Part shown: in pieces, positions 14,001 through 34,500 of the stretch
Layout of the letters: each line of letters begins with the position of its first letter
How positions within the stretch are numbered: position 1 is the stretch's first letter
NCBI RefSeq assembly: GCF_032062105.1
Contig: NW_026917900.1
Span: 1-64,000 of the forward strand
Direction of reading: 5' to 3'
From: Saccostrea cucullata
Lineage: Eukaryota
Length of the DNA stretch: 64,000 nt
Position numbers: made by a program

Positions 14001-16350
14001 GTAGTGAAGATTCAAATTTGTTCAAATCATGACCCCGGTGATAGGTCGGGGCCACAATGGCTGATCAGAGTTTTACATAGAAATATATACTGTAGGAAAT
14101 TCATTTAAAAATTTTCTTCTCAAGAATAACAAACCCATGATTGGTCATATTTATATGGAAGCATTCTCAGGTAGTGTAGATTCAAGTTTGTGCAAATCAT
14201 ACCCTCTCTCCTTTAAGGAAAGGTTGGGACTACTTTTGGGTTTAATTTTTTTAATAATAATTCCTAGCCACAGTGCTCAAGTGAGCCATGTGGTCCATGG
14301 GCTCTTCTTTTATATATCGTAGGATACTTATTACTGAGGCAAATAAGATAAAATGTAATATGATTACGAGTGAGTAAAATTTTGCGCGGTAAAGAGCTTG
14401 ACACCCCCACCCCTAATTGAAACAAGATTACCCAGTTTTGTTTGTTTGTCTGTGTGTGCATACCTTGATAACATAAGGAATCAGTGTCGTTCACTCGACA
14501 CCTACAAAACATACACATTTAGAATACCATCTTTTTATCTGTATACTTAAAAAAAAACTCTTTTTTGTATAACAATTGGGAAATGAACTTTTTTCCCTTA
14601 CAGATGAAGCAATTTATCATTTTAATTATAGTTTTAAGTTGTATATAACAGCTTCGGTCGAAATTTATTTGTGTAAAAGGTTGCCCTTCATGCATAAAGA
14701 GTACCTTGTAATATTCTATTCTGACGAATAATGCATGCTTTAATAACAATTACATAATGAAACTTAAATTAAGCACAAAGAAAATAAAAAAAAAAAAAAG
14801 AACACCACCCTACCAAATATATGTCTTGCAGCTTTTTTATAATCCACATTTCTTCATTTCTTTACAGATATTATAATTACACCTACATGCATAGTGAAAA
14901 GCAGCTGCAAGACTAATTAAGTGAAGAAAAACATTTTATTACACCATCCAAGAATATTCTGTCTACTATATGAATGCTCGTTCATTTTTTTAAACTAATT
15001 TTTCATATATAAATAGGACCTACCCTTCCTCCCTTATGAAGTCAATTTTTCTTTTTCTAGATCCATTATGAAAAAAAATATTCTCCGATCTATGCAAGTA
15101 TTGACCCATTCTACATTTTATGTATTGGAGTATATGGAAATTAGTATTATTTTATGTCATATAGTAAGTTCAATGTAATGAAAACAATCATTTTATTCGG
15201 TGAACTGAGTTTAGCCATCAAATCTCAAATCTCCCAAACAAAAACATTTACGCGCAATCCTCTAAAAAATTCATATATTATATTTTTTTAAATGCCATCA
15301 ATTTTCTGATTTAAAATGGATGTGTTTTGTAACTATGGAAAGCAATAATATTTTTTGACAATCTCTCTCTCTCTCTCTCTCTCTCTACAAACAAAAATGT
15401 ACACTTTTAATACAAAACACAAAATAAGCACTTCACCTGCTAAATTTTTGTCTTCGTACGGGTTTATACAAGACTTATATAAGTTAAGTTTTTTTTTCAA
15501 GCTATAAAACAAACAGCCTTTTCCAAAAAGAACACAGTGCATAGTAGTATAAATACGTATAATTACTGACGTATGACAAATTGCTATTCTTACTCTACTC
15601 AGGCTTTATGGCGTATTTCGTTCTATTTCTCTGCTTCAAATTCGATGTAAGTGAATACAGAAAATTGGACGGGAGAAATTATATATTACAAACTTTTTAA
15701 AACACTATTCATTCTGTCAAACCTATTTAATTAATTCTTCCGACTTAAAGAAAATGTACATGTGCTACGGGTAAAACTACCGAGATACGAAGTAAGGGCG
15801 AGTTACACTAGTTCCTAGGATGTTGGTATTCCTCAAGTGTGAGTAAACGGAGAGTATGAAAATATATTAAAATGATCAATGTAAAAAATATTGAGCATTT
15901 CATTAAACTCATCGGGAAAACGATATCTAAAAAAGGCACAGTTTAAATTCGTTTGGTTTCAAAAGCCTGACTGTTGGCATTCTCTTCATACTTAAGTTTA
16001 AAACTTAAAGCGAATGTATATTGGTAGATACATTTGTTGGCTTTAAAACTGCAAAACTCTATGAATACAGAACCATAAAAAATACGCCCTCTTTAATTCC
16101 TATAGCTGAATTTGAAAAGAAATGACACTTTCATTACCCTGTCCATATTTTTGTTCGTCTGATAATTAATCTTAAAACATTGCTGTGACGTCATGCCTTT
16201 GTTCTTGCAGTCTAAAAATTTACCTGTAGCCGTCCGATAATAATAATTACTAGTCTGATAATATATTATCGGACAGCAATGATAACGAAATCGGACGGTA
16301 TTTAAAAAACAAAAAGAAGAGTGAAATTAAGGTTAAATATGTCCAGAAAC

Positions 16351-16381
<31 letters not shown>

Positions 16382-31542: not shown

Positions 31543-31593
<51 letters not shown>

Positions 31594-34500
31594 AACACGT
31601 AAATATACACTTTAAAAACAACACCAAATAAGCGAATCATCTAGTAAATTGTTGGTATTTTCGTGCCTATACAGAATGTTAGCTTAGATTTTTTCAAGCT
31701 ATAAAACGAACAATGTTTCCCCAAGAGAACATAGCGCATACTAACATATGGCACATGGCAAGATGTTTTTTAATTCGACTTGGGCATTATGGCGTATTTT
31801 CCTCTATTTCTCTGCTTCACATTCGATTTGACTAGTCCTAGGATATTGGTATTTCTCAACGGGGAGGAAATAGAGTATGCAAATATATTAAAATGATCAA
31901 GGAAAAAAATATTAAGCATTGTTATAAAATTCATCGGCATAGCGGTTCTGTTTTCTATATATAAAAGGGCACAATCAAAAGAATTGTTTCGGTTTTAAAA
32001 TCCTGACTGTTGGCATTCTCTTGTTACTTAAGTTTAAAACATAAAACAAATGTATATTGGTAGATACAATTGTTGGCTTTAAAACTGCAAAACTCAGAAT
32101 ACAGAACCGAAAAGAATACCCTCTTCAATTCCTATAACTGTATTTGAGAACAAATGACACTTTCATTACCTTGTTCATATTTTTGTTCTTGGGATAATGC
32201 AACATAAAAATCGAAATTTTTACAATATAATTCGTATCTAAAAAAAACCTCTTGAAATATTCTAATGGTACATGGAACATGCCTATTTTTGCATCATGAC
32301 TAAAATGTCAGATTTCTTCTTCGTATTTTATCCAGTATTTCTGACTGAGAAGAAACAAGATTCCAATCTTTAATCCAAGAATCGGTTCCATTATGAACGT
32401 AATCTTGACTTTCTTTTTAAACGCAATACAAAATAAAAAATTGATAAATATTATCGTAAGTTTATGTAGATACTGCAAACTGCCACATTCCATGAACAAA
32501 GGTATGGATTAGATAAATGTAATGAAAATAGACATTTTATAAGGTGGACTGAGTTTAGACATCAAATCTCCCGAAGAAAAATATCTACGCGCATACCCTT
32601 TATAAACACCTATTTCATATTTTCCGAAGAAGTGCCACGTATTTTGAATGATTTTTGTTACTATAGAAAACAATACTAATTTGTTGTCAATCGTGCTTTT
32701 CTTCAACTCACTCTCGTTCTATCTTTCTCTTTCTGTCTCTCGCTTTTTTTATAAACACATTACTGTACACTTTTAATAGAAAACACCAAATAAGCGCATC
32801 AACTATTATAGTGTTGCTTTTGTACTGGTTTGTACAGGATGTAAGTTTGGATTGTTTCAATTGTAAAATGACAACCTCTCCCCAAGAGAACACAGCGCAT
32901 GGAAATATGAATACGTATAATCATTGACGAACGGCAAAATGTTCTCTAATCCGACTTTGGCATTTTTGCGTATTTTCCTCTATTTCTCCGCTTCAAATTC
33001 GATGTAAGTGCATCCTACCAAAACATACTAAAGTAAACTATTGTGAACTATAGTTTAGTATAGTTAACTGTGATACCAAAGTTAAAACATTGGAATTTTG
33101 ATCTATTTTGGCAAAAACTTTGAAAATTTAATTTACTCTATTAATAGTGAAAACTTTTGAATTTAGATTTACTATAGTAAAAAACCCGATTCCCTGTGTT
33201 TTTAATGATATAAAAAACATCACCATTAAGCACTTATAATTAGTATATCTATATTTTGCCGTTATCTATCAAATCATATATTGAAAAAAAAAGGTTTGTA
33301 AATTAAATGCATGCAGACATAGTTTTTATTATTGTGTTTATGCAGAAATTTCTCGAACATCTGCGATGGAAAATTGTCTGATTTCTCAGGCAAGATTCAT
33401 GTGATTTTTTTTATTCTTGTCCATTCAATGGAAATAAAACATACTTGCATGTACATAAAATATCCCGATCATGATAATTCACAGAATGTAACTTCTAACG
33501 CCTTTTAGGCCTTCTTGTGCATACGAAAAAAATGTCAAAATGAGTATCGTGATACTACAAATCTATTAATCGGTCGGAACGTCTTGTAGTTAATCGATTA
33601 GGCATTCTGCAATCGATTGCCATCCCTAGTATGTATATAATAAAAAAAATAATCGAACGCCGATTAAAACACTACCGGTTTCAATTATATCATCAGGATT
33701 TTTGACATATAGCTATAATTTAATTTTGTTTGTATTCTAGCCTTTCATACGTTGATTTCTAAAAGGGAACGTAAATTATTCTGTATAATCTTGTTTGGTA
33801 TGGGGACGCACCCCCCTAGACAACCAGCAGAATCATCTGTATCCATGCTCTCCCTTCATGTCCAGTCCTTGGGATTGATTGAAAATTGCAGATTTAATAT
33901 AGTATGTACATAATGTATATTCAACTTCAAACAGTAGCTCGATCTTACCTCATGTAAACAAACATCATGGCTGCTAGGTCTATGTATCAGTTATTACCTC
34001 CCCTCCTTCCCATCACTTCCGTTACTAAGGTTGTGTTATTGAGCGGCAAATTTGAACACATAAAAAGCAAAACAATTTCACATCAACAGTTGTTTAATTA
34101 TTTTAAAATGAAATTATAAGGAGTGACTCTAATTCTTGGCCAAATTAACAGTTATAACCTGGCTTCAGTTCAGGCTTTTTTATAATGCACTTTGCGTATT
34201 ATAAAGCGTAAATTGACCCAGACCAGGTTATACTCTATAATTTGGCCAAGAATTAGAGTCATTCCTTGAAAATTTACATTCCCATTTATTTAATATTCTT
34301 TACAAATTAGAATTTTGTTCATTTTCTCATAGACTACCATGAATGAGCATGAATATCTCCATTGTTACGTCATACTACCGTACTTGACTTCAAAACTATA
34401 GTGCAATCTGTTTTGCTTAACAATAGAAGTTGAATTGCGTAATATTTGGAACTAGTCAGAAAAATAATGTAAATATGATGAATTTAATTTTTGAAGAATC

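What the first reader, a model, noticed from the sequence alone, without database searches (positions are those of the whole stretch)
15170..33010. Complex 1.3-kb tandem array with unevenly conserved blocks, more gene-like than satellite-like
About 8 units of complex sequence without TE termini have accumulated indels and four large insertions. Two short blocks nevertheless stay nearly invariant, and both sit at splice-signal-like sequences. That pattern fits a locally expanded small-gene or exon-cassette cluster in birth-and-death evolution (inference).
Basis: partly seen in the sequence, partly recalled or inferred. Interest (0 to 1): 0.65.

Follow-up and report, generated by a model that had tools for sequence, protein, structure and literature searches.

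The report
Decaying noncoding tandem array, conserved motifs
An old eight-copy tandem repeat of a 1.3-kb non-coding unit keeps two 30-base motifs almost unchanged at splice-site-like positions, which hints at small spliced non-coding transcripts, but nothing yet shows that it is expressed.

Summary
Window 15159-33044 (+) is a head-to-tail array of 8 diverged units of about 1.17-1.29 kb, 63-90% identical. Four later insertions of 1347, 2676, 4313 and 957 bp interrupt it.

Conservation is not flat. A 30-column block A has a minority-letter rate of 0.014 against a unit mean of 0.137 (0 of 3000 shuffles reach it). Block B has 0.038 (p=0.006).

Block B ends on a GTAAGT donor-like site. Block A holds pyrimidine-tract/CAG acceptor-like sites on both strands.

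I found no protein-coding signal, Pfam domain, homologue, Rfam family, tRNA or conserved RNA fold. "Small protein gene cluster" is therefore not supported.

Best reading: an old, locus-specific non-coding macrosatellite reshaped by unequal crossing-over and transposon hits. Its constrained blocks most likely act as splice or promoter modules of short non-coding transcripts. The strand is unresolved and expression is untested.

A transposon-derived origin could not be tested, because no eukaryotic DNA or repeat library was available.

The parts
15159..33044 (+). Whole tandem array: 8 head-to-tail units plus 4 insertions
15159..16177 (+). Unit Ua. It is 5'-truncated and starts at alignment column ~390. 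Its last ~10 nt lie after insertion I1, at 17525-17534.
16178..17524 (.). Insertion I1 (1347 bp). It is a dispersed repeat with a second copy at 54011-54899 (83-93% identity). It has a 53-nt palindrome at 17405-17514, which gives MITE-like miRNA-family hits.
17535..18669 (+). Unit Ub, first part. Its tail is at 21346-21537.
18670..21345 (.). Insertion I2 (2676 bp). It looks like a DNA transposon: a 5-bp direct duplication at the junctions and ~12-bp terminal inverted repeats. Its inner part 19269-19850 is 93% identical to 40335-39754.
21538..22350 (+). Unit Uc, first part. Its tail is at 26664-26954.
22351..26663 (.). Insertion I3 (4313 bp). It has no second copy in the window, and about 30 nt of the unit are missing at the site. 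CpG o/e is 0.36 at 24-26 kb.
26955..27924 (+). Unit Ud, with an internal deletion right after block B
27925..28521 (+). Unit Ue, first part. The rest is at 29479-29774 and is rearranged.
28522..29478 (.). Insertion I4 (957 bp). It lies between the TATA-like box and block B of Ue.
29775..31048 (+). Unit Uf (1274 bp), the most complete unit, used as reference
31049..32216 (+). Unit Ug (1168 bp). The TATA-like box is deleted and the block B donor is lost.
32217..33044 (+). Unit Uh. It is 3'-truncated, and the array ends about 35 nt after its block B.
17646..17675 (.). Block A core, Ub
21655..21684 (.). Block A core, Uc
27069..27098 (.). Block A core, Ud (1 mismatch)
28014..28043 (.). Block A core, Ue
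29887..29916 (.). Block A core, Uf (1 mismatch)
31174..31203 (.). Block A core, Ug
32333..32360 (.). Block A core, Uh (2-nt deletion and 1 substitution)
15622..15653 (+). Block B core with GTAAGT, Ua
18266..18297 (+). Block B core with GTAAGT, Ub
22216..22247 (+). Block B core, Uc (donor reads GTAAAT)
27687..27718 (+). Block B core with GTAAGT, Ud
29541..29572 (+). Block B core with GTAAGT, Ue
30530..30561 (+). Block B core with GTAAGT, Uf
31803..31834 (+). Block B, Ug (degenerate, donor lost)
32979..33010 (+). Block B core with GTAAGT, Uh
30458..30467 (+). TATA-like box about 60 nt upstream of block B, shown for Uf. The same column is TATAAATA in 4 of 8 units, CATAAATA in 2, mutated in 1 and deleted in 1.
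30246..30308 (+). (CT)n microsatellite of Uf. Every unit has one at this position, and the length varies.
30038..30068 (-). Minus-strand donor-like site (GTATGT or GTAAGT), shown for Uf. GT is kept in 6 of 7 units. It lies about 155 nt upstream of the minus-strand acceptor inside block A.

Best explanation
This is an old, locus-specific tandem duplication (a macrosatellite) of a 1.27-kb non-coding unit. The array grew and was reshuffled by unequal crossing-over. It is now decaying through deletions and at least four insertions, two of which are demonstrably mobile elements.

Inside this decay, two blocks of about 30 nt, and perhaps a third, are held nearly constant in almost every unit. That calls for purifying selection on the host locus.

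The most likely role of the blocks (inference) is as signals and adjacent exon ends of short spliced, non-coding RNA polymerase II transcripts that are repeated with the unit. Two versions fit the sequence.

- Plus-strand version. A (CT)n tract and TATA-like boxes lie upstream of block B. Block B ends at a GTAAGT donor. An intron of about 0.6 kb follows; three of the four insertions and both large deletions fall in that stretch. It ends at the pyrimidine tract and CAG inside block A of the next unit, which is followed by a purine-rich GAAGAA stretch and then AATAAA about 110 alignment columns further on.
- Minus-strand version. The third block is followed by a GTATGT or GTAAGT donor, an intron of about 155 nt, and a strong pyrimidine-tract/CAG acceptor inside block A.

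Shown: the array, its history, the constraint, the absence of coding and of structured-RNA signals, and the positions of the signals. Inferred: transcription, splicing and strand.
For: Array and history.

Constraint: block A rate is 0.014 against 0.137 (0 of 3000 shuffles) and block B rate is 0.038 (p=0.006). The exact cores recur only within the array.

Signals at the blocks:
- The block B donor keeps GT in 7 of 8 units and GTAAGT in 6 of 8. Conservation drops right after it.
- The plus-strand CAG in block A is kept in 7 of 7 units. Its pyrimidine tract passes a strict acceptor filter in 5 of 7.
- The minus-strand acceptor passes the filter in 7 of 7.
- Such acceptor-like sites are rare, 0-2 per unit and strand. 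The only two conserved in at least 4 units both lie in block A.
- AATAAA after block A is present in 6 of 7 units, and a TATA-like box at column 775 in 6 of 8.
- GTRAGT is more frequent on the plus strand: 17 against 5 summed over the units.
- The minus-strand donor keeps GT in 6 of 7 units. The GTAAGT/GTATGT difference between units keeps the signal.
- Unit Ug lost the TATA-like box, the donor and the sequence after it together, as expected for a dead module.

Not coding. Not a structured RNA.
Against: - There are no expression data of any kind.
- The signals are short motifs in 69% A+T DNA, and both strands give a plausible model, so neither model is specific.
- The pyrimidine-rich and purine-rich stretches of block A are invariant in sequence. 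A generic pyrimidine tract would tolerate C/T changes, so this fits sequence-specific recognition by a protein at least as well.
- The ATG in block B is kept in only 5 of 8 units.
- The plus-strand donor-like site after block A is not conserved (alignment).
- Requiring a motif in at least 4 units favours conserved stretches, so finding signals in the blocks is partly circular.
- Column shuffles ignore the relatedness of the units.
- I could not test whether the unit is a member of a transposon family.
Confidence: 0.4

Rival explanations
1. The array is a tandemised transposon or transposon part. It could be a long-monomer, transposon-related satellite of the kind common in oysters, possibly Helitron/Helentron-related. 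The two blocks would then be the element's conserved end boxes.
For: In C. gigas, 52 satDNAs include long monomers such as 1144, 1295, 1084 and 1423 bp with 65-69% A+T, and most are similar to transposons (PMC8268682 Table 1). Non-autonomous Helitrons of oysters have conserved boxes of 42-53 bp at their ends and a microsatellite inside (PMC8268682). Whole Helitrons can stand in tandem (PMC7492417). Here each unit has two conserved blocks of 30-45 nt with a (CT)n microsatellite between them. The array ends about 35 nt after a block B. A weak hairpin spans block B.
Against: No 11-12-bp subterminal inverted repeat links the block A and block B regions. The best match is 9-10 of 12 at inconsistent positions, no better than controls. 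There are no 160-180-bp central repeats inside the units. No other copy or fragment lies in the remaining 46 kb of the window, although other mobile elements recur there. The blocks are about 600 nt from each other across the unit junction, not abutting. End boxes of a transposon would not stay constrained in a static array whose other parts have diverged by 15-35%.
Confidence: 0.2
2. The blocks are repeated binding sites for a sequence-specific DNA-binding protein. That would make the array a set of insulator, enhancer or silencer sites, as in macrosatellites that carry protein-binding sites. It would need no transcript.
For: The constraint is on exact sequence over about 30 nt, including stretches that a splice signal would allow to vary. 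Both blocks share an 8-nt word (alignment). There is no RNA structure and no coding. CpG o/e is about 0.95-1.0 in the units, which fits unmethylated DNA.
Against: It does not explain why block B ends exactly on a consensus donor, nor why the unit's only conserved acceptor-like sites sit in block A. No factor or motif family was identified.
Confidence: 0.2
3. The units supply alternative leader (first) exons or cassette exons to a protein-coding gene whose other exons lie outside the array.
For: TATA-like boxes, a conserved short exon-like block and a strong donor are repeated in each unit. The last unit ends soon after its donor, which faces the right flank.
Against: No coding exon was detectable in the window. 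Among 81 ORFs of 70 aa or more, the only matches above the Pfam cut-off are transposon scraps at 42201-42485 and 59841-60098. No stretch with at least 43% G+C lies between 29.6 and 41.4 kb. This detection is insensitive to short exons.
Confidence: 0.1
4. The array is a cluster of small protein or peptide genes.
For: Several frames stay open for 35-100 codons in most units. An ATG precedes block B in 5 of 8 units.
Against: There is no frame-specific constraint, no Pfam domain and no homologue in two searches. Indels shift the frames between units. Shared open frames are expected from common ancestry.
Confidence: 0.03
5. The array is a cluster of structured small RNA genes: C/D snoRNA, miRNA, or spliced-leader RNA.
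For: There are weak, non-significant C/D snoRNA hits over block A (E 0.3-5). A donor lies inside a weak hairpin at block B, as in spliced-leader RNAs.
Against: No Rfam family reaches its gathering score. The C-box-like word varies among units (alignment). Consensus folds are only -7.5 and -7.9 kcal/mol, with 0 of 22 and 1 of 23 pairs covarying. No unit has a 90-nt hairpin below -27 kcal/mol, and none is at a shared position. The sequence after the donor is deleted in 3 of 8 units and shows no Sm-like site by eye. The units are far too diverged for a spliced-leader array.
Confidence: 0.03

Closest known systems
Long-monomer, transposon-related satellite DNAs of oysters (e.g. CgiSat14 at 1144 bp and CgiSat23 at 1295 bp; PMC8268682 Table 1, seen)
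   Same: Both are head-to-tail arrays of a complex monomer of 1.1-1.3 kb with 65-69% A+T. Both form short arrays in transposon-rich euchromatin rather than long homogeneous blocks.
   Different: Their sequences could not be compared, because supplements and GenBank are out of reach. This array has 8 units that are 63-90% identical, no second locus in the window, and two selectively conserved blocks, which those papers do not describe in the passages I read.
Non-autonomous Helitron/Helentron elements of oysters (Cg_HINE, Helitron-N; PMC7492417 and PMC8268682, passages)
   Same: Both have two conserved boxes a few tens of bp long and an internal microsatellite. Whole elements can occur in tandem.
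   Different: There are no subterminal inverted repeats and no 160-180-bp central repeats. The microsatellite is a dinucleotide, whereas theirs are mostly 4-nt motifs. The boxes do not sit at the unit junction.
Mammalian macrosatellites and repeat-built non-coding RNA loci: DXZ4, D4Z4, the Firre repeated domain, and SNORD116 host-gene units (recalled, not from any call)
   Same: In these, kilobase tandem units each carry a short constrained module (a promoter, exon, binding site or small RNA) in otherwise free-drifting sequence.
   Different: There is no sequence relation. No embedded ORF or snoRNA was found here, and expression is unknown.

Membership tests
Tandem repeat / macrosatellite | Head-to-tail copies of one unit, same orientation and register, with a unit of about 1 kb or more | tested here: met
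   8 units, all on the + strand, period 1168-1287
Classical satellite DNA | Many homogeneous copies (concerted evolution) | tested here: not met
   8 copies, 63-90% pairwise identity. Genome-wide copy number could not be tested.
Protein-coding gene cluster | An open frame conserved across units with fewer amino-acid-changing than silent changes | tested here: not met
   lowest pN/pS 0.39, median 0.83 over 278 windows, not frame-specific.: frames shift between units.
Protein-coding gene cluster | Relatives or domains in protein libraries | tested here: not met
   0 of 23 array ORFs reach a Pfam cut-off.: no relative of the 70-aa ORF over block A.
Known RNA families (Rfam), tRNA | A match at the family's gathering score | tested here: not met
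   0 matches.: only sub-threshold hits, and none recurs at the same place in different units.
C/D box snoRNA | Conserved C and D boxes with a terminal stem | tested here: not met
   The C-box-like word differs in 4 of 7 units (alignment). Rfam E-values are 0.3-5. The fold is -7.5 kcal/mol.
miRNA cluster | A conserved stable hairpin of 60-90 nt holding the conserved block | tested here: not met
   the best 90-nt window is -27.1 kcal/mol and no position is shared among units.
Spliced-leader RNA genes | A short exon plus donor, followed by a conserved intron part with an Sm site, in near-identical tandem units | tested here: not met
   The donor is present. The downstream part is deleted in 3 of 8 units and weakly conserved. 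The units are 63-90% identical. No Sm-like site was seen by eye.
Helentron non-autonomous element (HINE) | A pair of 11-12-bp subterminal inverted repeats | tested here: not met
   best 9-10 of 12, at inconsistent positions, equal to the control distribution
Helentron non-autonomous element (HINE) | Internal microsatellite | tested here: met
   (CT)n in every unit
Helentron non-autonomous element (HINE) | 3' palindrome | tested here: inconclusive
   a weak hairpin over block B, broken in 2 of 5 units
Any transposon family | Dispersed copies with defined termini, or a match to Repbase/Dfam | not testable with these tools
   No further copy in the window. No eukaryotic genome or repeat library was available.
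Spliced RNA polymerase II transcription unit | TATA-like box, donor, acceptor and poly(A) signal in order on one strand | tested here: met
   plus strand: TATA-like 6 of 8, donor GT 7 of 8, CAG 7 of 7, AATAAA 6 of 7. These are motif matches only.
Spliced RNA polymerase II transcription unit | Transcripts with the predicted junctions | not testable with these tools
   No RNA data were available.

The most novel reading that the evidence does not exclude
Each repeat is a working mini-gene. On this reading the array is a family of about six still-intact, tandemly duplicated, two-exon non-coding transcription units, or leader exons. Only the splice sites and the 30 nt next to them are under selection. 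The act of transcription and splicing, or a 30-nt RNA word repeated along a long repeat-built RNA, would then be the function, and copies would be born and lost by unequal crossing-over.
Probability: 0.2. Interest if true: 0.6.

Novelty: new member of a known kind. Interest (0 to 1): 0.38.

Why it matters
Tandem arrays with kilobase units are usually written off as transposon debris, especially in repeat-rich bivalve genomes. This array has drifted to 63-90% identity, yet it keeps two 30-nt words nearly fixed in almost every copy. That marks a functional non-coding element whose copy number is itself evolving.

If the blocks prove to be splice or promoter modules, the locus would be a compact natural example of birth and death of non-coding transcription units. 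If they prove to be protein-binding sites, it would be a molluscan counterpart of macrosatellites that organise chromatin. If the unit proves to be a known transposon, the finding is ordinary.

Tried and rejected
- **Protein coding.** I tested six-frame ORFs per unit, a pN/pS scan, Pfam on 81 ORFs, a word-based homologue search and a full HMMER search of 1.84 billion representatives with the 70-aa ORF over block A. All were negative.
- **Known RNAs.** Rfam at gathering score and ARAGORN gave nothing. At relaxed thresholds there were only MITE-like hairpins inside insertions I1 and I2 and chance-level snoRNA hits.
- **RNA structure.** Consensus folds of both blocks were weak, and a hairpin scan of all units on both strands found nothing shared. 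Pairing between block A and block B was weaker than shuffles: -10.2 against a mean of -13.5 kcal/mol.
- **Helentron-type subterminal inverted repeats** between the blocks: not found.
- **Terminal repeats around the array:** none.
- **LTR/TRIM reading** (block A as polypurine tract, block B as primer-binding site): considered by eye only and dropped. The conserved part of block B lies beyond the TGG, which is itself lost in 3 of 8 units, and no TG...CA ends are seen.
- **Species identification.** Two flank ORFs each gave a single unnamed ENA protein, so the species stays unverified.
- **Literature.** Three searches and passages of three papers did not turn up this unit. The supplements, which hold the satDNA consensus sequences and Helitron box sequences, were closed and may bear on the transposon question.

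
Full report
**1. What is there**

The window has one N run (12599-12735), which I left alone.

A self-comparison with one unit (29700-31000) finds + strand matches only between 15172 and 33013, apart from a dinucleotide microsatellite at 1975-2047. The repeat finder gives the same register, with spacings of 1152-1287 between undisturbed neighbours. A more sensitive search sets the ends at about 15159 and 33044. TRF did not list the array because its period limit is 500.

I call the eight units Ua to Uh.
- Ua lacks its first ~320 columns.
- Uh stops about 35 nt after block B.
- Ud, Ue and Ug have internal deletions.
- Overall pairwise identity is 63-90%.

**2. The insertions**

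Junction mapping against intact units gives the following.

| Insertion | Coordinates | Size | Notes |
|---|---|---|---|
| I1 | 16178-17524 | 1347 bp | Dispersed repeat with a second copy at 54011-54899 (83-93%). Has a 53-nt palindrome that gives sub-threshold hits to MITE-derived miRNA families. |
| I2 | 18670-21345 | 2676 bp | 5-bp duplication at its junctions and ~12-bp terminal inverted repeats. An inner piece is repeated at 40335-39754 (93%). |
| I3 | 22351-26663 | 4313 bp | No second copy in the window. About 30 nt of the unit are lost at the site. |
| I4 | 28522-29478 | 957 bp | No second copy in the window. |

At least two of the four are therefore mobile elements that landed after the array formed. 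No inverted or direct repeats bracket the array itself.

**3. History**

Similarity between units is mosaic.
- Uc is 94-96% like Ud in alignment columns 340-940, but 92-96% like Ug in columns 940-1520.
- Ub pairs with Uf at 87-90%.

This is the footprint of unequal crossing-over or conversion between units, so "birth and death" is a fair description of the dynamics.

**4. Uneven conservation**

On a MAFFT alignment of the units with the insertions removed, 1025 columns are covered by at least 6 units. Their mean minority-letter rate is 0.137.

| Block | Columns | Rate | Shuffle test |
|---|---|---|---|
| A | 199-228 | 0.014 | 0 of 3000 shuffles had a lowest 30-column window as low |
| B | 903-932 | 0.038 | 0.57% of shuffles |
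| Third | 431-474 | 0.056 | p 0.03-0.12 depending on window size; absent from 2 units |

- The block A 17-mer core is exact in 6 of the 7 units that cover it and has one mismatch in the seventh. The only other matches in the window are two three-mismatch, chance-level hits at 2938 and 20288.
- The block B 31-mer is exact in 3 units and has one mismatch in 4. The eighth unit (Ug) is degenerate.
- The shuffles ignore the relatedness of the units, but the flanks of the same units have diverged by 15-35%. Short conversion tracts shared by all units are an unlikely alternative to selection.

**5. What the blocks sit on**

Block B ends on a donor-like site. GT is kept in 7 of 8 units and GTAAGT in 6 of 8; Uc reads GTAAAT and Ug has lost it. 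Conservation falls directly after this site.

Upstream of block B lie these features:
- a TATA-like box about 60 nt before an ATG (TATAAATA in 4 of 8 units, CATAAATA in 2, mutated in 1, deleted in 1);
- a second TATA-like box about 50 nt further up (6 of 8);
- a (CT)n tract in every unit.

Block A contains a pyrimidine tract plus CAG on the plus strand (CAG in 7 of 7; strict filter passed in 5 of 7). Only 11 nt away it holds a pyrimidine tract plus CAG on the minus strand (7 of 7).

By the same filter such sites are rare, 0-2 per unit and strand. The only two conserved in at least 4 units are these two. That count favours conserved stretches by construction.

AATAAA follows block A on the plus strand in 6 of 7 units.

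On the minus strand a GTATGT or GTAAGT donor (GT in 6 of 7) lies about 155 nt upstream of the block A acceptor, and the third block lies just upstream of that donor.

Donor-like hexamers are more frequent on the plus strand, 17 against 5 over all units.

**6. What it is not**

- *Not protein coding.* Several frames stay open for 35-100 codons in most units, as expected from shared ancestry. A six-frame pN/pS scan of 278 windows shows nothing frame-specific (lowest 0.39, median 0.83). None of the 23 ORFs of 70 aa or more inside the array reaches a Pfam cut-off (the best is a 16.6-bit match against a cut-off of 27). The 70-aa ORF that includes block A has no relative in the word-indexed search or in a full HMMER search of 1.84 billion representatives.
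- *Spliced model not joined.* I searched contiguous ORFs only. The joined (spliced) step was left out, and the exons are too short to search one by one.
- *Not a known or structured RNA.* No Rfam family reaches its gathering score and there is no tRNA. At relaxed thresholds there are chance-level C/D snoRNA hits over block A, but the C-box-like word varies between units. Consensus folds are -7.5 and -7.9 kcal/mol, with 0 of 22 and 1 of 23 covarying pairs. No strong hairpin is shared among units. The two blocks do not pair with each other better than shuffles.

**7. The transposon question**

Oyster genomes are rich in transposon-related satDNAs with long monomers. In C. gigas these include 1144, 1295, 1084 and 1423 bp (PMC8268682 Table 1). 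Similar satDNAs are reported in five other oyster species (PMC11136912, passages).

Their non-autonomous Helitrons have conserved end boxes of 42-53 bp and an internal microsatellite (PMC8268682; PMC7492417). That resembles "two blocks and a microsatellite".

The defining subterminal inverted repeats are absent, however. There are no 160-180-bp central repeats in the units. The blocks do not abut at the unit junction. No other copy lies in the window.

End boxes would also have no reason to stay fixed in a static array. A transposon origin of the unit remains possible, and it is compatible with a later host function of the blocks.

I could not search any eukaryotic genome or repeat library.

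**8. Context**

- The rest of the window looks transposon-rich, with no evident host gene. The only Pfam matches above cut-off are an aspartyl-protease scrap and a zinc knuckle.
- CpG o/e is about 0.95-1.0 in the units but 0.36-0.48 in I2 and I3.
- The species is not established by my calls. Two flank ORFs each hit only one unnamed protein.
- The 165-170-bp repeats with a (TGTC)n tract fit the oyster Helentron elements described in PMC7492417, but I made no sequence comparison.
- Nothing suggests a human contig.

**9. Verdict**

There is real constraint at splice-like signals, but there is no protein gene.

The best-supported reading is an old non-coding macrosatellite whose two or three constrained blocks work as splice or promoter modules of short non-coding transcripts. 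The strand is unresolved. My confidence in that mechanism is 0.4.

The main rivals are a transposon-derived array (0.2) and repeated protein-binding sites (0.2).

The decisive data are a genome-wide and repeat-library search with the unit, and stranded long-read RNA data.

Noticed in passing
13663-14204, 41637-41958, 48740-49586, 55643-55958; (TGTC)n at 55039-55085: Related tandem repeats of 165-167 bp occur at four places. One lies next to a 4-nt microsatellite. This layout matches the Helentron non-autonomous elements described for C. gigas in PMC7492417. It was not compared by sequence.
   Followed up: partly
12768-12861: A perfect 46-nt inverted repeat with a 2-nt spacer lies 33 nt after the N run at 12599-12735.
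   Followed up: no
8884-9424 and 61459-62104: Two young tandem arrays: 180 bp x 3.0 and 170 bp x 3.8, both with 97% matches.
   Followed up: no
60493-60852: A 21-bp minisatellite with 17 copies and a higher-order period of 43/64. It lies next to a gag-like zinc-knuckle ORF at 59841-60098 on the minus strand.
   Followed up: no
9919-10209 (-): A G+C-rich patch (0.49) with CpG o/e 1.33. Its translation ends in a string typical of a tRNA-derived SINE (my recollection). ARAGORN finds no tRNA.
   Followed up: no
42201-42485 (-): A retroelement aspartyl-protease fragment (Pfam PF13650, 25.3 bits). Its one relative is a 1011-aa unnamed protein.
   Followed up: partly
34111-34274 and 34478-34618: Two MITE-like inverted-repeat pairs lie just right of the array: 52-nt arms at 83% and 30-nt arms at 93%.
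   Followed up: no
4041-4556 (+): The longest ORF of the window (172 aa, lysine-rich). It has no Pfam match, and its one partial relative covers 31% at 70% identity.
   Followed up: partly
20001-22000 and 24001-26000: Insertions I2 and I3 are CpG-depleted (o/e 0.48 and 0.36), while the repeat units around them are not (0.95-1.0). This suggests different germline methylation of the inserted elements and the array.
   Followed up: no
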